From Candidatus Dormibacter sp. (lineage in GTDB: Bacteria > Chloroflexota > Dormibacteria > CF-121): DNA of 64,000 nt. Below are positions 4,886-9,982 of this stretch, piece after piece; within the stretch, counting starts at the first letter, position 1; each line of letters opens with the position of its first letter. The stretch is taken from NCBI GenBank assembly GCA_039922495.1, contig JBDTEO010000015.1:844-64843 (forward strand), in the 5' to 3' direction. The notes beneath the pieces are model-generated. The model saw only the letters and a list, made by a program, of their open reading frames with translations, had not been told where the DNA came from and ran no database searches. The position numbers and the translations under genes are program-made.

Positions 4886-5788
4886 CTAGAGGCTTCCGTG
4901 GAACGTGTCGCAGTCCTTCCGGGTGCCTTTGGTGTAACCGTTCGTAAACCACTTCTGGCGCTCGGCGGCCGAGCCGTGGGTCCACGTCTCGGGATTTACC
5001 TGGCCCTGGGTTTTCTGCTGGATACGGTCGTCGCCAACCGCGGCTGCCGCATCCAGTGCTTGCGCGATCTGGTCCGGGGTCAACGGTTCAAGGAACCCGG
5101 TTGCCGCCGCGTGGTTGGCCCACACGCCGGCGAAACAATCCGCCTGCAGCTCGGTACGCACCGAGGTCCCGGTTGCTCCCTGTTGGCCGGCCGCCGATGA
5201 CAGCTGCCCCGTCAGATCCTGGATGTGGTGACCGTACTCATGCGCCACCACATAGCCTTCGGCCAGCGATCCACCGCGGGCGCCAAACTTCGTTTGCAGA
5301 TCCTGGAAGAAGCCGAGGTCGATGTAGACGTACTTATCCTGCGGGCAATAGAAGGGGCCGACCTGCGACGTGGCATCCCCGCAACCGGTCGAGACCTGGT
5401 CGGTATAGAGGACCGTCTTGGCCGGCTGGTACTGCTGCCCGGCGGCGGCAAACTCACCGGTCCAGAACTTCTGGATGCTGTTGACATAGCCGACGATCCG
5501 GCAGTCCTCACGCTTGTTGGCGTCGGCTCCGGTGGTGCACTCTTGAAGGGAGCTGGCGGCGGGCTGCGGGCCGGCGTTGGGATCCTGGCTGGCGCCGAGG
5601 TTACCGAGATTGCCTCCCACAAGGAGGTAGATGATGAGGACGACAGTGCCGAGGCCACCGCCGCCAATCGCGAGGCCTCGGCCCCCAAAGCCGCCGAAGC
5701 CGCCTCCGCTGCCACGGACGTCTTCGACCTGGCTCGGATCGAGCGGAGCTCTCGGATCGAACGACACTGCTACGCCCCCGTGGCCCAC
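4886..5788 (-). CDS. neutral zinc metallopeptidase, YpfJ/Zn_peptidase_2 family
   Basis: HEYGHHIQ zinc motif in a YpfJ-like context ([18 protein letters not shown]). N-terminal TM and Gly-rich linker. Confidence 0.75.
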
Positions 5789-5821: not shown

Positions 5822-8746
5822 CTATAATGATCGCGGCGGAAGGCTGACCACTTCGCGCCGTTGCGGCGACAGGGCTGGGTCCTCCCGCAGGGCGAGGCCC
5901 ACGGTCTCCTCGATCGTCATCGTCACGCTGGCTCGCCATTGTTCCTCGAAGGCGGCCTCGCCAAGCGCGGCCTGGACGGCCCGAACCAGGCGGTCGTGGT
6001 CCGCCATCTCATAGGGCCGCAGGGGGGAACCGATGCGATCCCGCAGGGTGGCCGCGCTGGCGTAGAGGGTGGCTGCCCGCGGCCATTGGCCCATCTTCGC
6101 GGCAATCGCGGCCAGGTTCTCGAGGCAGCGGGAGATGCCGAACTGCTCGGTAGTGTCGAATTTCGACAGGGCACTCCGGAGAAGGGTGCTGGCCTCGTCG
6201 GCGTTCTCCTGCAGCCCCGCGATGATGCCGAGCTCGCACAGGCTCTCGGCTTCGAACTCGGTGATATTCACCTCGCGCGACAGTTCGAGACTTTCCTGCA
6301 GGAGCGCGGTGGCGCGTTCCCAGTCACCCTGGCAGCGGGCGACGATGCCGAGCAGGCGGAGCGTGCTGGCGACGTCGACCTTGTCTTTGGCTTCGCGCAC
6401 GAGGAGGAGACTTTCTTCGAGGAGTGAGGAGGCCGGGGCATAGTGCTCCTGGGCCAGCTCGACTTCTCCCATCAACTGGAGCGCGATCCCGATCTCACGG
6501 GTATCCTGCGCCTCGCGCGCGAGGGCGAGCGCCTCCTCGAGGAGGGACATCGCCCGGGGATAGTCACCGCGGGCCAGCGCCCCGAAGCCCAGGTGAGTCA
6601 GGGCGAAGCCGATCCAGGGCTTGTCCCCGGTCTTTCGGAAGAGGGCGAGGCTTTCCCCGTGCAATCGTTCGGCGCGTTCGTAGTCGTCCTGGGCGTGGAG
6701 AGCGGCCGCAAGGTTCTGCAGCGCAAAGGCCCGGCCCCAGTCGTCGCCGAGCTCTTCGTAGATGGCCAGGCTCTCCCGCTGGCGCAGGATCCCCTCGGCG
6801 TACGCACCCTGGTAGCTGGTCAACAGCCCATGCCAGGCGAGCGCCCGCGCGCGCAAGGCCGTACGCGCTTTGCCGCCGGCCCGCAGCGCGCGGTCAAGCC
6901 AGTCGCGGCCCTCGTTAAAGCGTCCACGGGCCCGCCAGAAAAGGCCGAGCGATGCCGCGAATTCCAGCGCCTGTTCCGCCTCGCCGGCGGCGAGGCAGCA
7001 TTCGAAGGCCGCCCGGAGGTTCTCGAGCTCAGTCTCCAGCCGTTCGAACCACGCGAGCTGGTTCGGACCGTGGAGTTCCTGTTCGCCGTGGCGGGCGACC
7101 TCGAGAAACCACTCGCGATGCCGGGTTTGCAGCGGCCGGTCCTCACTGGCTGCCGTGACCCGTTCGGCGACATACTGCCGGATGGTTTCGAGCAGGCGGT
7201 ATCGGGGCACATCCCGCTCCTCGTCCACGACGAGCAGCGACTTGGCCGCCAGGGCGTCGAGCAGGTCGAGGATTTCGTCGGCGGTCAAGGGGTCCCAGGC
7301 GCAAACCTCCTCGGCCGCCTCGAGCCGGAACCCGCCGGCAAAAATCGAGAGCCGGCGCAGGAGGGCCCGCTCGGATTCTCCGAGCAGCCCGAAGCTCCAG
7401 TCGATGGCCGCCCGCAGGGTCTGCTGGCGGGGGAGCGTGCGGCTCCCGCCGGTCAGCACGCGGAAGCGGTCCTTCAGGCGGACGGCGAGTTGGTCGACGG
7501 TCAGCATCTTGAGCCGGGCCGCCGCCAGCTCGATGGCGAGCGGGATGCCATCGAGGTCGTGGCAGACCTGGCTGACCAGCGGCATCGTCTTCTCGGTCAA
7601 GGCGAACGACGGGTTGACCGCACGGGCCCGGTCGGTAAAGAGCGTGATGGCGGCGGACTCGGCTACGATCTCCAGGGGCAGCATCCGCTTGGGGTCCGGC
7701 ACGGTAAGCGAAGGGACCTTCCAGACGGTCTCGCCCGTGACGCCCAGACCCTGGCGGCTGGTCGCGACGATGCGGAGCTGCGGGCATTCCTGCAACAGCG
7801 CCTCGGCCAGCTCCGCGCTGGGTTCGATGAGATGCTCGCAGTTATCAAGGATCAAAAGCACCTCGCGGGTGTGCAGGTACTCGATCAGGGTTGCGGTCGG
7901 GGAGCGCCCCGGTTGTTCTCGCAGACCGAAGACCGTCAGGACTGTGGGCGCCACCAGGCCCGGATCGGAGATGGCGGCCAGCTCGGTGAGCCAGACACCC
8001 TGTGAGTACGACTCGATCACCTCGGCGCCAAGCTGGATGGCCAGGCTCGTCTTGCCCATGCCGCCGGGCCCGGCTAGAGTAACGAGCCGCTCGTGCGCCA
8101 GCAAGGCATGCAGCTCGGCCAGCTCGTCGCGTCGGCCGACGAAGCTGGTCAGCCGGAGCGGCAGGTTGTTGCGACGAAGATTCAGGCTCTTCAGCGGCGG
8201 AAACTCTGAGGGCAGGCCGCCAATATCGAGCTGGAAGATGCGCTCCGGTCGGGGCAGGTCCTTCAGGCGATGCTCCCCAAGGTCGCGAAGGCTGATATCC
8301 GAGGCCAGCGCCTTCTCGATCAGGGCATGGGTCGGCTCGGAGAGGACGACCTGACCGCCGTGGCCGGTCGCCGCGATTCGCGCTGCCCGGTGCACTTCCA
8401 GCCCGATGTAGTCGCTGCCAACCACGCGGGCGTCGCCGGTATGGAGGCCCATGCGGACCCGCACGGGAAAGCCCTCCGGCCAGGTCTCGGCCGCGAGCTC
8501 GCGCTGGGCGGTAACCACGGCGTCGACCGCCTTCACGGCACTGGCGAAGACGACAAAGAAGGAGTCGCCTTCAGTCCCCATCTCGTAGCCGTCGTTGGCG
8601 GTGATCGCCCGGCGCATTACGCGTCGTTGCGCCGCGAGCACGTCGATCCAGCGTTCACCGAGCTCCTGGACCATCAGGGTGGAGCCCTCGATATCGGTGA
8701 ACAAGAACGTCACGGTGCCGGTCGGTAGTGTCCGCTCGGCGTTCAT
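5822..8746 (-). CDS. STAND-type class III adenylate/guanylate cyclase (CHD plus NB-ARC/AAA plus TPR array)
   Basis: N-terminal FLFTDIEGST...GLHTGDA cyclase homology domain; P-loop LAGPGGMGKTSLA; long C-terminal TPR-like repeats. Confidence 0.85.
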   Translation of the reverse strand: MNAERTLPTGTVTFLFTDIEGSTLMVQELGERWIDVLAAQRRVMRRAITANDGYEMGTEGDSFFVVFASAVKAVDAVVTAQRELAAETWPEGFPVRVRMGLHTGDARVVGSDYIGLEVHRAARIAATGHGGQVVLSEPTHALIEKALASDISLRDLGEHRLKDLPRPERIFQLDIGGLPSEFPPLKSLNLRRNNLPLRLTSFVGRRDELAELHALLAHERLVTLAGPGGMGKTSLAIQLGAEVIESYSQGVWLTELAAISDPGLVAPTVLTVFGLREQPGRSPTATLIEYLHTREVLLILDNCEHLIEPSAELAEALLQECPQLRIVATSRQGLGVTGETVWKVPSLTVPDPKRMLPLEIVAESAAITLFTDRARAVNPSFALTEKTMPLVSQVCHDLDGIPLAIELAAARLKMLTVDQLAVRLKDRFRVLTGGSRTLPRQQTLRAAIDWSFGLLGESERALLRRLSIFAGGFRLEAAEEVCAWDPLTADEILDLLDALAAKSLLVVDEERDVPRYRLLETIRQYVAERVTAASEDRPLQTRHREWFLEVARHGEQELHGPNQLAWFERLETELENLRAAFECCLAAGEAEQALEFAASLGLFWRARGRFNEGRDWLDRALRAGGKARTALRARALAWHGLLTSYQGAYAEGILRQRESLAIYEELGDDWGRAFALQNLAAALHAQDDYERAERLHGESLALFRKTGDKPWIGFALTHLGFGALARGDYPRAMSLLEEALALAREAQDTREIGIALQLMGEVELAQEHYAPASSLLEESLLLVREAKDKVDVASTLRLLGIVARCQGDWERATALLQESLELSREVNITEFEAESLCELGIIAGLQENADEASTLLRSALSKFDTTEQFGISRCLENLAAIAAKMGQWPRAATLYASAATLRDRIGSPLRPYEMADHDRLVRAVQAALGEAAFEEQWRASVTMTIEETVGLALREDPALSPQRREVVSLPPRSL

Positions 8747-8827: not shown

Positions 8828-9982
8828 TCAGGCAGTAGACAGATGAGCCGGCCGCGTACTCGGGTTCAGCTGCGCCGTCTCGAGTGCCTGCCGCGCGTTC
8901 GAGAGGCTTATCCCGCAGTCCGGGCAAGGCGGCGGGCAATTGGGTAGCGTCTGGACTACGTCCCCCTCGCCCCCCACCGTGACGGTTGGGCAAGGCACGC
9001 AAGCGCCACTGATGCATTCCTGCCCGGTTGCACACATGGGACTCGAGCACGTATTCGTGATCTTCGCTCCGTTCTGGTTGATCGTCTCCCGCACCTTGCA
9101 GTTTCCTGCGGTCGCCGGCGTCACGACACAGTGCGCCGTGTTGTCGGCGAACTGGGCGGCGCCCATCATGGCTTTCTGCGAAACGTCCTGGTGCAAATCA
9201 ACGTTGACCTGGCTCCCATCGAAGAAGTTGCAACAATGCGGGTCGGCAATCTGCGACTGGTTGTCTTTGTTGGGGCCGTCCTGATTCTGATCAACGTCCT
9301 GGTGGATGGTGGCGTGAGTCGCGCCCGCGGTGTGCTGGTCGAGGTGGCTTGACTGTCCAACCGTCTGGCTTTGCAGGGCCGTGCTATCGCCGGTCTTTTC
9401 TTTCTGCTTACCTGCCTGGTTCAGGTGGATCATGTTCGCACCGTCGGCGTTGGTCTGGAGGATCGTCACACCGGGCTCGCCCGTACCTGGACGGAACCCC
9501 TGATCACTCGTCTGCGTCTGGTTGCCGGCGGCGTCGGTCGACTGGCTCAGCGTCTGGTCGGTGCCGGCGTCGTTCAACCCCGAGGCATTGGTCTGGGTGA
9601 TCGTCACCCGCTGCTGGCCAGTCTGCTCGGCGCCATTCTTCTGGCGGATCTCCTGAACCACGACCGCGTGGTTGTTGCCGGTGGTATTGGTCTGCTCGAT
9701 CATGCAGGTCTCAACCATCGCCGGGGCCGAGCTCTGCTCGATGCAGCGGGCCTCGTTGTTGCCAGGCCCGGCCTGGGTGATCATGCAGGAGATCGCGATC
9801 GGCGCCCCAGTCCCCTCGTCGTACGTGATTTTACCAAAACCTGGATCGCAAATGACGCTTGCCGCCGCCACGTCGCTGGCCCCATCGCCGGGTGCGGCCA
9901 GGGCTGTCGCGCCGCTGGAAAGAGCAAAAAATAGCACGCTCCCGATGGTCGCCGCGGATGCGACGAAACGCCTGGTCCCCAT
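8828..9982 (-). CDS. secreted Q/N/T-rich repeat protein with curlin-like (CsgA-type) repeats and a Cys-rich C-terminal domain
   Basis: Signal peptide (MGTRRFVASAATIGSVLFFALSSGATALA). Five or more 20-24-aa repeats of the form I-x-Q-T-N-x-x-G-x-N-x-A-x3-Q, e.g. ITQTNASGLNDAGTDQ and ILQTNADGANMIHLNQ. C-terminus has more than 14 Cys (CVPCPTV...CPPPCPDC). Confidence 0.55.
   Translation of the reverse strand: MGTRRFVASAATIGSVLFFALSSGATALAAPGDGASDVAAASVICDPGFGKITYDEGTGAPIAISCMITQAGPGNNEARCIEQSSAPAMVETCMIEQTNTTGNNHAVVVQEIRQKNGAEQTGQQRVTITQTNASGLNDAGTDQTLSQSTDAAGNQTQTSDQGFRPGTGEPGVTILQTNADGANMIHLNQAGKQKEKTGDSTALQSQTVGQSSHLDQHTAGATHATIHQDVDQNQDGPNKDNQSQIADPHCCNFFDGSQVNVDLHQDVSQKAMMGAAQFADNTAHCVVTPATAGNCKVRETINQNGAKITNTCSSPMCATGQECISGACVPCPTVTVGGEGDVVQTLPNCPPPCPDCGISLSNARQALETAQLNPSTRPAHLSTA

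What the first reader, a model, noticed from the sequence alone, without database searches (positions are those of the whole stretch)
8828..9982. Curlin-like Q/N-ladder repeat protein in a high-GC organism, without csgEFG-type partners
The secreted 384-aa protein contains at least five imperfect 20-24-residue repeats of the form I-x-Q-(T/A)-(N/G)-x-x-G-x-N-x-A-x3-Q, for example ITQTNASGLNDAGTDQ and ILQTNADGANMIHLNQ. This mirrors the S-x5-Q-x-G-x-G-N-x-A-x3-Q unit of CsgA/CsgB functional amyloids.

It ends in a domain with more than 14 cysteines. It lies directly upstream, same strand, of the STAND adenylate cyclase.

No curli secretion genes are nearby. This suggests either a monoderm-style amyloid or adhesin, or a new repeat family.
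Basis: partly seen in the sequence, partly recalled or inferred. Interest (0 to 1): 0.6.

Follow-up and report, generated by a model that had tools for sequence, protein, structure and literature searches.

The report
Exported solenoid protein paired with cyclase
This gene encodes an exported, cysteine-rich stacked-beta-strand protein that resembles curli amyloid subunits only in a short motif. It belongs to an undescribed family of soil bacteria whose genes almost always sit next to one particular cAMP-making sensor enzyme.

Summary
The ORF at 8828-9982 (-) is real: 384 aa, a strong Shine-Dalgarno site and a signal peptide. The motif I-x-Q-x4-G-x-N-x-A-x3-Q is real and non-random. It occurs 3 times strictly, once nearly, and about twice in degenerate form.

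It is not a curlin. There is no Curlin_rpt hit at E<=10, while the E. coli CsgA control scores 1.4e-27. hhalign probability against CsgA/CsgB is 0.6%. Foldseek finds no match to the solved curli structures. The window has no csg genes.

It shares the inward-facing heptad N-x-A-x-V-x-Q with curlins, but the arc is 6 residues rather than 4. Motif starts are 27-46 residues apart, and both ends are cysteine-rich (16 Cys in total, 12 in residues 250-356).

It belongs to a family with no Pfam match (144 clusters at 50% identity). The window is from Candidatus Dormibacter. Other members are in Chloroflexota MAGs and probably Gaiellaceae. AlphaFold2 predicts an all-beta layered fold (pLDDT 84) with no PDB match.

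The main new result is gene pairing. In 27 of 29 informative loci, a cyclase-STAND-TPR gene abuts the 3' end of the family gene. Four of four cyclase orthologues carry the family gene; none of three paralogues do.

Function is unknown. The protein is most likely a capped extracellular solenoid tied to a cAMP module.

The parts
8828..9982 (-). Gene for the 384-aa exported Q/N-ladder, cysteine-rich beta-solenoid protein (NCBI MEO6796300.1, annotated as hypothetical protein, Candidatus Dormibacter sp.)
   Evidence: ORF. GGAGG at 9991-9995. Family of 144 clusters at 50% identity. Identical-cluster member named by NCBI.
9896..9982 (-). Signal peptide, residues 1-29 (MGTRRFVASAATIGSVLFFALSSGATALA, predicted cleavage before A30). 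The T-R-R-F-V stretch partly resembles a Tat motif.
   Evidence: Read from the sequence. Strongest hydrophobic window starts at residue 6. pLDDT <50 for residues 1-36. In the close subgroup the signal peptide is the most conserved 27-residue stretch, 60% versus 40% identity. SignalP/TatP were not available.
8942..9859 (-). Predicted all-beta layered core, residues 42-347, about 9-10 strand-arc-strand layers
   Evidence: AlphaFold2 pLDDT 84.2, pTM 0.80, with long unbroken DSSP strand segments such as 119-149 and 172-196. Conservation alternates with period 2 along the strands. A member at about 28% identity gives the same architecture.
9734..9781 (-). Motif layer 0, residues 68-83 ITQAGPGNNEARCIEQ (arc one residue shorter)
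   Evidence: Loose regex match. I68, Q70, A78 and C80 are invariant in A1.
9653..9700 (-). Motif layer 1, residues 95-110 IEQTNTTGNNHAVVVQ
   Evidence: Strict regex match. I95, Q97, G102, N104, A106, V108 and Q110 are invariant in A1.
9554..9601 (-). Motif layer 2, residues 128-143 ITQTNASGLNDAGTDQ
   Evidence: Strict regex match. Q130, G135, N137, A139 and Q143 are invariant in A1.
9416..9463 (-). Motif layer 3, residues 174-189 ILQTNADGANMIHLNQ
   Evidence: Strict regex match. I174, Q176, G181, N183, L187 and Q189 are invariant in A1.
8915..9235 (-). Cysteine-rich C-terminal part, residues 250-356, with 12 Cys including the vicinal pair C250-C251 in D-P-H-C-C. It continues the beta layers and ends in short strands, so it probably caps the solenoid.
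   Evidence: Cys positions. C250, C251, C285, C295, C317, C323, C331 and C349 are invariant in A1. Strands at 242-347 are predicted with high pLDDT. The capping role is an inference.
8831..8914 (-). Low-confidence C-terminal tail, residues 357-384, ending ...STRPAHLSTA. The closest relatives end R-P-x-x-L-x-T-A and the related subgroup ends ...ARSAPSxALLT.
   Evidence: pLDDT <50 at residues 359-366 and 372-384. Alignment consensus. C-termini listed.
10046..10074 (-). Promoter-like site TTTACA-17-TACGAT, about 64 nt upstream of the ATG
   Evidence: Consensus scan: 2 sites found against 0.3 expected. This is a consensus match only.
5822..8746 (-). Partner gene: class III adenylate/guanylate cyclase domain + STAND NTPase + TPR, 974 aa (NCBI MEO6796299.1). 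It lies 81 nt downstream on the same strand, with no terminator-like site between the genes.
   Evidence: Pfam Guanylate_cyc 3e-13, AAA_22/AAA_16/NB-ARC, TPR_12 2.5e-37. No terminator-like site in the gap. Orthologues follow the family gene in L004, L005, L006 and L129-L132.
10133..12319 (+). Divergent neighbour: membrane protein with a weak M50-peptidase-like region and two cNMP-binding domains, 728 aa (NCBI MEO6796301.1)
   Evidence: Pfam cNMP_binding 9e-46 (two stretches); Peptidase_M50 2.4e-5, below the curated cut-off. The same gene is divergent from the family gene in L007.
13080..13784 (-). Crp-type regulator (cNMP_binding + HTH_Crp_2)
   Evidence: Pfam. Orthologues lie just upstream of the family genes in L004, L006, L007 and L130.

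Best explanation
The ORF encodes a member of an unannotated family of exported, disulfide-rich beta-solenoid proteins. The window is from Candidatus Dormibacter; relatives occur in Chloroflexota MAGs and, very likely, Gaiellaceae.

Architecture. Each layer is strand-arc-strand. The conserved inward face is built from x-V-x-I-x-Q and N-x-A-x-V-x-Q heptads, the same kind of Q/N-plus-small-hydrophobic ladder that holds curlin together. The arcs are longer, the layers are irregular, and both ends are cysteine-rich.

Likely behaviour. I take the protein to be a capped, monomeric extracellular or cell-surface solenoid (structural, adhesive or recognition surface) rather than a self-propagating curli-type fibre.

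Genetic context. Its gene is the constant partner of one orthologous group of cytoplasmic cyclase-STAND-TPR proteins. In Dormibacter-type loci the pair sits among cNMP readers: a Crp regulator and cNMP-binding membrane proteins. The most likely logic is a cAMP module. The TPR sensor switches on the STAND oligomer, which activates the cyclase; cAMP is then read by the neighbouring Crp and cNMP-binding proteins. The solenoid is either the controlled surface output or the thing being monitored.

Shown: the gene, the motif, the family, the failed curlin tests, the predicted fold and the gene pairing.
Inferred: export, disulfides, capping, monomeric state, and any regulatory link or its direction.
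For: Gene and motif:
- ORF, ribosome-binding site and cysteine positions.
- Motif statistics and internal duplication at E 1.7e-8.

Family:
- 6 close homologues and 144 representative clusters.
- 0 of 50 members hit any Pfam model. No NCBIfam hit.

Fold:
- AlphaFold2 pLDDT 84.2 / pTM 0.80 for the window protein and 84.5 / 0.82 for a member at about 28% identity.
- Conservation alternates with period 2, and Q, N, G and C positions are invariant.
- No PDB or viral structural match.

Extracellular location:
- Signal peptide, an even number of conserved cysteines, and fusions to DUF11 surface domains in three members.

Pairing with the cyclase:
- Forward test: 22 loci carry a convergent cyclase gene whose stop lies -4 to about 80 nt from the family gene's stop. 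One further locus, held without DNA, shows the same arrangement. Four loci carry a co-directional cyclase. Only L014 and L023 lack it.
- Divergence: across 14 convergent pairs, median identity is 33% for the solenoid and 54% for the cyclase.
- Reverse test: 4 of 4 cyclase orthologues have the family gene immediately upstream, against 0 of 3 paralogues.
- Taxa: Dormibacter, Chloroflexota MAGs, Gaiellaceae.
- cNMP-reader genes lie next to the pair in the window, L004, L006, L007 and L129-L131.
Against: - No experiment bears on location, oligomeric state or regulation.
- No Crp-box enrichment upstream of family genes: best scores 6-8 of 10, as expected by chance.
- In the convergent loci the two genes cannot share a promoter, and no cNMP readers are adjacent.
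- Model coordinates could not be inspected, so the two-sheet geometry, the disulfide pairing and the capping are inferred from DSSP strings and conservation only.
- All loci come from a few soil lineages, so shared ancestry contributes to the synteny.
Confidence: 0.55

Rival explanations
1. It is a true functional amyloid: a curli analogue for bacteria without an outer membrane. Subunits are exported through Sec or Tat and polymerise head to tail outside the cell without CsgB/E/F/G.
For: - It has the curlin-type kernel N-x-A-x-V-x-Q and an I-x-Q ladder with Gly-containing arcs.
- It is exported and rich in Q and N: Q 9.1%, N 6.5%.
- Curlin monomers are also confidently predicted solenoids (PMC10192328).
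Against: - No sequence, profile or fold similarity to curlins.
- The layers are heterogeneous: motif starts are 27-46 residues apart, with only 3-4 good motif copies.
- Both ends carry conserved cysteine-rich short-strand regions, which would block end-to-end stacking.
- No nucleator or chaperone gene is conserved nearby.
- Some members carry extra globular C-terminal domains.
Confidence: 0.12
2. The exported protein supplies the ligand for the cyclase's TPR sensor, in an RRNPP-like or pheromone-like circuit with cAMP as output. A released fragment would reach the cytoplasm and activate the STAND cyclase. Candidates are the unusually conserved signal peptide, perhaps cut by the neighbouring M50-type protease, or the C-terminal tail.
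For: - The conserved partner is the TPR-bearing receptor itself, in either orientation and in two phyla.
- The signal peptide is the most conserved 27-residue window in the close subgroup: 60% versus 40% identity, higher in 97% of pairs.
- An M50-like, cNMP-binding membrane protein is the divergent neighbour in the window and in L007.
Against: - A conserved folded domain of about 300 residues with 16 Cys is unnecessary for a peptide precursor.
- Oligopeptide-importer ATPases are near only 2-3 loci.
- The M50-like gene is present in only two loci, and its M50 match is below Pfam's cut-off.
- C-terminal tails differ widely across the family.
- No motif is shared between the two proteins.
Confidence: 0.1
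3. The adjacency is inherited synteny with no functional meaning. The protein is simply a fast-evolving surface protein that sits beside one of the many STAND cyclases of these genomes.
For: - Cyclase-STAND-TPR genes are extremely abundant: at least 7,999 homologues at E<=1e-50.
- All loci come from a few related soil lineages.
- Convergent pairs cannot be co-transcribed.
- No Crp box was found.
Against: - Adjacency persists at 25-33% identity of the solenoid, through an inversion (co-directional versus convergent), with two very distant cyclase subfamilies (BLASTP E 3e-4), and in two phyla.
- Other neighbours are not conserved.
- The reverse test gave 4 of 4 orthologues against 0 of 3 paralogues.
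Confidence: 0.15
4. The locus is an anti-phage or conflict system of the Pycsar/Avs type. A STAND sensor detects an invader, the cyclase makes a nucleotide signal, and cNMP-binding membrane effectors act on it. The solenoid would be an accessory or decoy.
For: - PADLOC gives PycC hits for both cyclases (3e-5 and 1.1e-11) and Pycsar-effector hits for the cNMP-binding domains (4e-20).
- The architecture is STAND plus TPR, and the partner evolves fast.
Against: - The hits cover only the generic cyclase and cNMP-binding domains.
- The solenoid has no PADLOC hit.
- A Crp transcription factor and transporters with cNMP domains point to ordinary signalling.
- An exported, disulfide-rich partner is not a feature of known STAND defence systems (my knowledge of those families).
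Confidence: 0.06

Closest known systems
Curlin subunits CsgA/CsgB (Pfam PF07012 Curlin_rpt; structures 8ENQ, 8ENR, 8C50)
   Same: Both are exported proteins. Both appear to be built from stacked strand-arc-strand layers. The inward face uses a Q/N ladder plus small hydrophobic residues. The heptad N-x-A-x-V-x-Q equals the curlin kernel N-$-Psi-$-Psi-$-Q. The arcs contain Gly.
   Different: - The arc after the first strand has 6 residues, not 4.
- Motif starts are 27-46 residues apart, not 19-23.
- Only 3-4 good motif copies are present.
- There are 16 conserved Cys and cysteine-rich ends.
- No csgB/C/E/F/G genes are present.
- The hosts belong to Terrabacteria lineages thought to lack an outer membrane.
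- No HMM, hhalign or Foldseek similarity was found.
- The family is paired with a STAND cyclase instead of a Csg operon.
Beta-helix / beta-solenoid proteins such as UreD/UreH, SufD, autotransporter passengers (Ag43, pertactin) and pectate-lyase-like enzymes
   Same: All have an all-beta, layered, elongated architecture. These proteins are the top, though non-significant, Foldseek hits.
   Different: Best E-values are 0.36-0.37, with TM-scores of 0.25 or less. There is no Pfam match. No catalytic or autotransporter features are present.
Actinobacterial cyclase-ATPase-TPR proteins (architecture of M. tuberculosis Rv0386/Rv1358/Rv2488c; MalT-type STAND regulators), for the partner gene
   Same: The partner has the class III cyclase + AAA/NB-ARC NTPase + TPR_MalT architecture. 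Ligand-gated oligomerisation is expected from what is known of STAND proteins.
   Different: The window protein has no LuxR-type HTH. It forms a distinct orthologous group defined by adjacency to the solenoid gene. The convergent-type partner has an N-terminal zinc ribbon.
Gene pairs of a TPR/STAND receptor with a small partner: RRNPP quorum-sensing pairs and NLR-associated bacterial amyloid signalling motifs (BASS; bioRxiv 10.1101/2020.01.06.895854)
   Same: A cytoplasmic TPR or STAND receptor gene lies next to a partner gene. The partner is Q/N-rich with an amyloid-like motif.
   Different: No short motif is shared between the partner and the receptor N-terminus. The receptor N-terminus is a cyclase domain. 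The partner is a large exported, folded protein, not a 40-60-aa propeptide or a cytoplasmic effector.

Membership tests
Curlin (CsgA/CsgB, PF07012) | Significant match to the Curlin_rpt profile | tested here: not met
   No Pfam hit at E<=10. 0 of 50 family members have any hit. The E. coli CsgA control scores 1.4e-27 with 5 stretches. My own curlin-unit HMM, run without filters, gives 3.3 bits, E 0.96.
Curlin (CsgA/CsgB, PF07012) | Tandem 19-23-residue repeats of the kernel N-$-Psi-$-Psi-$-Q-X-G-X-X, twice per repeat (PMC10192328) | tested here: not met
   The heptad kernel is present, but the arc has 6 residues instead of 4. Motif starts are 27, 33 and 46 residues apart. Only 3 strict and 1 near copy exist.
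Curlin (CsgA/CsgB, PF07012) | Profile-profile or structural similarity to CsgA | tested here: not met
   hhalign probability 0.56%. Foldseek of two models against PDB returns no curli chain, although 8enq, 8enr and 8c50 are in the PDB copy.
Curlin (CsgA/CsgB, PF07012) | Genomic association with the nucleator CsgB and the secretion/assembly genes CsgE/F/G | tested here: not met
   tblastn with E. coli CsgA-G against the 64-kb window finds nothing better than E 0.15. The only conserved neighbour across loci is the cyclase.
Curlin (CsgA/CsgB, PF07012) | Forms ThT- or Congo-red-positive, detergent-resistant fibres | not testable with these tools
   This needs expression and biophysics.
   No Pfam or NCBIfam hit. 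PDB profile search found nothing relevant. Best Foldseek E-values are 0.36-0.37.
NLR-associated amyloid signalling pairs (BASS / HET-s type) | A short motif shared between the C-terminus of the partner and the N-terminus of the adjacent STAND protein, with both proteins cytoplasmic | tested here: not met
   No local similarity between the two proteins: best BLASTP E 1.2, and no hit with the family HMM run without filters. The cyclase domain starts at residue 9. The partner has a signal peptide.
Pycsar / STAND anti-phage systems | Match to defence-system protein models beyond generic domains, in a defence-system gene arrangement | tested here: inconclusive
   PADLOC gives only cyclase-domain (PycC, 3e-5 and 1.1e-11) and cNMP-binding-domain hits. 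The solenoid has no hit.
Tat-exported proteins | Twin-arginine motif Z-R-R-x-Phi-Phi in the n-region with a mildly hydrophobic h-region | tested here: inconclusive
   The window protein has T-R-R-F-V-A and the close subgroup has R-R-R-L-L. The second arginine is not conserved in A1 or in many convergent-type members. No Tat predictor was available.

The most novel reading that the evidence does not exclude
The exported solenoid and the STAND adenylate cyclase form a previously unrecognised two-gene signalling unit conserved in two Terrabacteria phyla. A product or state of the exported protein would be what the cytoplasmic TPR sensor reads, with cAMP as the output. Candidates are the unusually conserved signal peptide released in the membrane, or a processed tail. 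This would be an RRNPP-like or surface-monitoring circuit built on an NLR-type cyclase.
Probability: 0.1. Interest if true: 0.85.

Novelty: new variant of a known kind. Interest (0 to 1): 0.55.

Why it matters
Dormibacterota and Gaiellales are abundant soil lineages with few or no cultured representatives, and their cell-surface biology is essentially unknown.

This work defines a sizeable protein family that no database covers. The family has a confident predicted fold with no solved-structure match, and it reuses the curlin stacking kernel in a different, cysteine-stapled solenoid.

It also ties that family to one specific orthologous group among the thousands of unexplained cyclase-STAND-TPR proteins. 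That gives the group its first conserved genetic partner. The pairing provides a concrete starting point for asking what ligand such cyclases sense, and whether Q/N-ladder solenoids outside Proteobacteria and Bacteroidota are amyloids or capped monomers.

Tried and rejected
Curlin homology: rejected. See for sequence and profile tests, and for structure.

Known-family assignment found nothing:
- Pfam
- NCBIfam
- PADLOC, for the solenoid
- PDB sequence profile
- Foldseek against PDB and the viral library

The search for related loci with broad alignments failed for lack of a conserved stretch. I replaced it with a hand-made DNA pattern for Q-x-Q-x-G-P-x-x-C-C-x-x-Q. These were filtered out with the family HMM.

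Other leads that led nowhere:
- Crp-box search (TGTGA-N6-TCACA) upstream of about 30 family genes: no enrichment.
- BASS-like motif shared between the solenoid and the cyclase: none.
- Oligopeptide importer as a conserved neighbour: only in L004, L001 and the syntenic P0153 locus.
- Ice-binding idea, from outward T-x-T in 'TITQT': dropped, because the T-x-T pattern is conserved in only one layer of the family consensus.
- Literature searches for Dormibacter plus adenylate cyclase, curli in Chloroflexi, and STAND cyclases found no description of this family or pair.
Full report
**Observation**

The minus-strand ORF 8828..9982 encodes 384 aa. GGAGG lies 8 nt before the ATG, and a promoter-like TTTACA-17-TACGAT lies at 10074..10046.

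The N-terminus (MGTRRFVASAATIGSVLFFALSSGATALA|A) reads as a signal peptide. AlphaFold2 leaves residues 1-36 disordered. The composition is Q 9.1%, N 6.5% and C 4.2%. Cysteines are at 45, 66, 80 and 93, with twelve more between 250 and 356.

The strict motif [ILV]-x-Q-x4-G-x-N-x-[AI]-x3-Q occurs at residues 95, 128 and 174. A copy with a one-residue-shorter arc occurs at 68. None of 20,000 shuffles gave 2 or more matches. Two further copies, around residues 203-216 and 226-244, are degenerate (my reading of the sequence).

Profile self-alignment shows an internal duplication: residues 173-284 align with 94-213, probability 95%, E 1.7e-8. The real period is therefore a super-repeat of about 79 residues that holds motif layers 33 and 46 residues apart. 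It is not a 20-24-residue unit.

**Is it a curlin?**

No test of membership succeeded:
- Pfam and NCBIfam give nothing, even at E<=10. E. coli CsgA, fetched from MG1655, scores 1.4e-27 on Curlin_rpt in the same tool.
- An HMM built from the 11 CsgA/CsgB repeat units and run without filters gives the window protein 3.3 bits, E 0.96 among 181 sequences.
- hhalign of the 50-sequence family profile against CsgA/CsgB gives probability 0.56%. The only aligned stretch is I-x-Q..N-x-A, and it needs a 2-residue gap.
- The PDB copy holds curli structures 8enq, 8enr and 8c50. Foldseek with two confident models returns none of them. The best hits are UreD/UreH at E 0.36-0.37.
- tblastn with CsgA-G finds nothing in the window.

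What is shared is the stacking kernel. Sleutel et al. define the curlin repeat as N-$-Psi-$-Psi-$-Q-X-G-X-X, twice per repeat (PMC10192328). Here N104-H-A-V-V-V-Q110, N137-D-A-G-T-D-Q143 and N183-M-I-H-L-N-Q189 fit the heptad. However, six residues rather than four separate the preceding Q from the N. The second strand is often extended (Q110-E-I-R-Q114), and the return arcs are long and variable.

**The family**

The close search found 6 proteins. The exhaustive search found 144 representative clusters at E<=1e-3, 43 of them at E<=1e-10. None of 50 aligned members has any Pfam hit.

Invariant or nearly invariant positions are almost all Q, N, G, A, I or C. Conservation alternates with period 2 along the strands. 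That pattern is expected for beta strands with one buried face.

AlphaFold2 gives pLDDT 84.2 / pTM 0.80 for the window protein, with an all-beta core at residues 42-347. DSSP strand segments run unbroken through the arcs (119-149, 172-196), as expected for stacked layers rather than hairpins. A member at about 28% identity gives pLDDT 84.5 / pTM 0.82 and the same layered pattern.

The cysteine-rich region continues the layers and ends in short strands. I read this, together with the four N-terminal Cys, as caps.

Three longer members carry DUF11 surface domains, which supports an extracellular location.

**Organism**

A 90%-identity cluster-mate of the same length is NCBI MEO6796300.1, 'hypothetical protein [Candidatus Dormibacter sp.]'. 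The two flanking proteins are MEO6796299.1 and MEO6796301.1 from the same MAG.

The only two hits in the species-representative genomes are Chloroflexota MAGs. The convergent-type locus L002 carries an ammonium transporter whose 90%-identity cluster is named Gaiellaceae. That subgroup is therefore very likely actinobacterial.

Dormibacterota are placed next to Chloroflexota among Terrabacteria, a group that includes the monoderms (PMC10608941).

**Context: the main result**

In the window the gene lies 81 nt upstream of a 974-aa cyclase-STAND-TPR gene, on the same strand, with no terminator-like site between them.

The same arrangement holds in L004, where the cyclase is 57% identical while the solenoid is only 32% identical. 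It also holds in L005 and L006. Those three loci carry a tandem pair of family genes.

A DNA-pattern scan of metagenomes, filtered with the family HMM, gave about 26 further loci:
- In 22 loci with DNA, a 1,070-1,120-aa zinc-ribbon-cyclase-AAA_16-TPR_MalT gene lies convergent to the family gene. The stop codons are -4 to about 80 nt apart, mostly 10 nt or less.
- The P0153 locus, for which no DNA was held, shows the same arrangement.
- Two loci lack a cyclase: L014 (DUF11/BNR neighbour) and L023 (formyltransferase neighbour).
- Four loci end too early to tell.

That makes 27 of 29 informative loci.

Across 14 convergent pairs, the solenoids are 25-100% identical (median 33%) and the cyclases 42-100% (median 54%). 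The two cyclase types are barely alignable to each other (BLASTP E 3e-4). No other neighbour is conserved.

Reverse test. The window cyclase has at least 7,999 homologues. All four orthologues examined (53-56% identity; L129-L132) have a family gene immediately upstream on the same strand, with HMM E-values from 5e-67 to 1.6e-87. None of three paralogues at 46-48% identity does.

In Dormibacter-type loci the pair is surrounded by cNMP readers:
- a Crp regulator
- small cNMP-binding proteins
- cNMP-binding domains fused to MFS, M50-like, PLP-decarboxylase or Na/sulfate-symporter proteins

**Mechanism**

I commit to the following. The protein is an exported, disulfide-stapled, capped beta-solenoid, most likely a monomeric surface or matrix element with a rapidly diverging outer face. 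It belongs functionally with a ligand-gated STAND adenylate cyclase and the cAMP readers nearby.

The direction of the link is not resolved. The solenoid could be the output of cAMP control or the input to the TPR sensor.
- Against simple Crp control: no Crp-box enrichment was found.
- Against a peptide-import circuit: Opp ATPases are not conserved nearby.
- Against amyloid signalling of the BASS type: no motif is shared with the cyclase.
- PADLOC hits are domain-generic only.

One unexplained feature keeps the 'input' idea alive. In the close subgroup the signal peptide is the most conserved 27-residue window of the protein: 60% versus 40% pairwise identity, higher in 97% of pairs. An M50-like, cNMP-binding membrane protein is the divergent neighbour in the window and in L007.

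**Verdict**

- The curlin interpretation holds only as an analogy of the stacking kernel.
- The protein founds or joins an undescribed family.
- Its tight pairing with a specific cyclase-STAND-TPR orthologue group, seen across Dormibacter, Chloroflexota MAGs and probably Gaiellaceae, is new as far as the libraries and literature searched show.
- Function remains to be tested.

Noticed in passing
window 12645-13019 (+); L007 892-1233 (-): A 124-aa ORF lies between the M50-like/cNMP gene and the Crp gene. Its N-terminus resembles a RiPP leader, with a weak hit to PF14407 Frankia_peptide (E 4.3e-4, below the cut-off). Its C-terminus is a run of about 6 N-E-V-A-S pentapeptides, encoded by a 15-nt tandem repeat at 12906-12997. 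A homologue with T-E-A-A-S-H repeats sits at the same place in L007 (phmmer E 2.5e-37).
   Followed up: partly
window 10133-12319 (+): This 728-aa multi-pass membrane protein has a weak M50 (site-2 protease) match and two C-terminal cNMP-binding domains. That would make it a possible cyclic-nucleotide-gated intramembrane protease. It is conserved and divergent from the family gene in L007.
   Followed up: partly
window 9896-9982 (-); alignment A5: The signal peptide (consensus M-x-R-R-R-L-L-S-I-V-G-A-L-G-L-V-x-G-L-x-S-S-G-V-A-A-Q-A) is the best-conserved 27-residue window of the protein in the close subgroup: 60% versus 40% identity. This is unusual for signal peptides and unexplained.
   Followed up: partly
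L002 6858-6872; also L010, L013, L026, L042, L051, L064, L097, L098, L111: In the convergent (Gaiellaceae-type) loci, the stop codons of the family gene and the cyclase gene are only -4 to about 14 nt apart. There is no room for terminators, so the two transcripts must overlap as antisense.
   Followed up: no
L004 1333-3761; L005 102-2436; L006 3306-5784: Tandem paralogue pairs of the family gene lie upstream of the cyclase. Each has its own TTGACT-type promoter-like sequence, with a hairpin between the two genes. The window has a single copy.
   Followed up: partly
L129 1-3360; L130 36-2849; L131 1582-2358; L006 350-3159: Next to the pair, cNMP-binding domains are fused to very different proteins: an MFS transporter, a PLP-dependent decarboxylase, a Na/sulfate symporter, and small stand-alone proteins. 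Together they form a dense island of cAMP readers.
   Followed up: no
window 8831-8914 (-); C-termini listed: The disordered C-terminal tails fall into classes. The window's close relatives end R-P-x-x-L-x-T-A. The R-R-R subgroup ends ARSAPSxALLT. Many convergent-type members end in a polybasic K-K-G-R-R-R. This may be a sorting, anchoring or processing signal.
   Followed up: no
window 4886-5788 (-): A PF04228 putative neutral zinc metallopeptidase gene (E 2.3e-77) lies 33 nt downstream of the cyclase on the same strand. It is possibly in the same transcription unit and is not conserved in L004.
   Followed up: no
L001 11081-14844 (-); L113: The cyclase next to the family gene is broken into several frames in these two loci. 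This reflects either pseudogenes or assembly errors.
   Followed up: no
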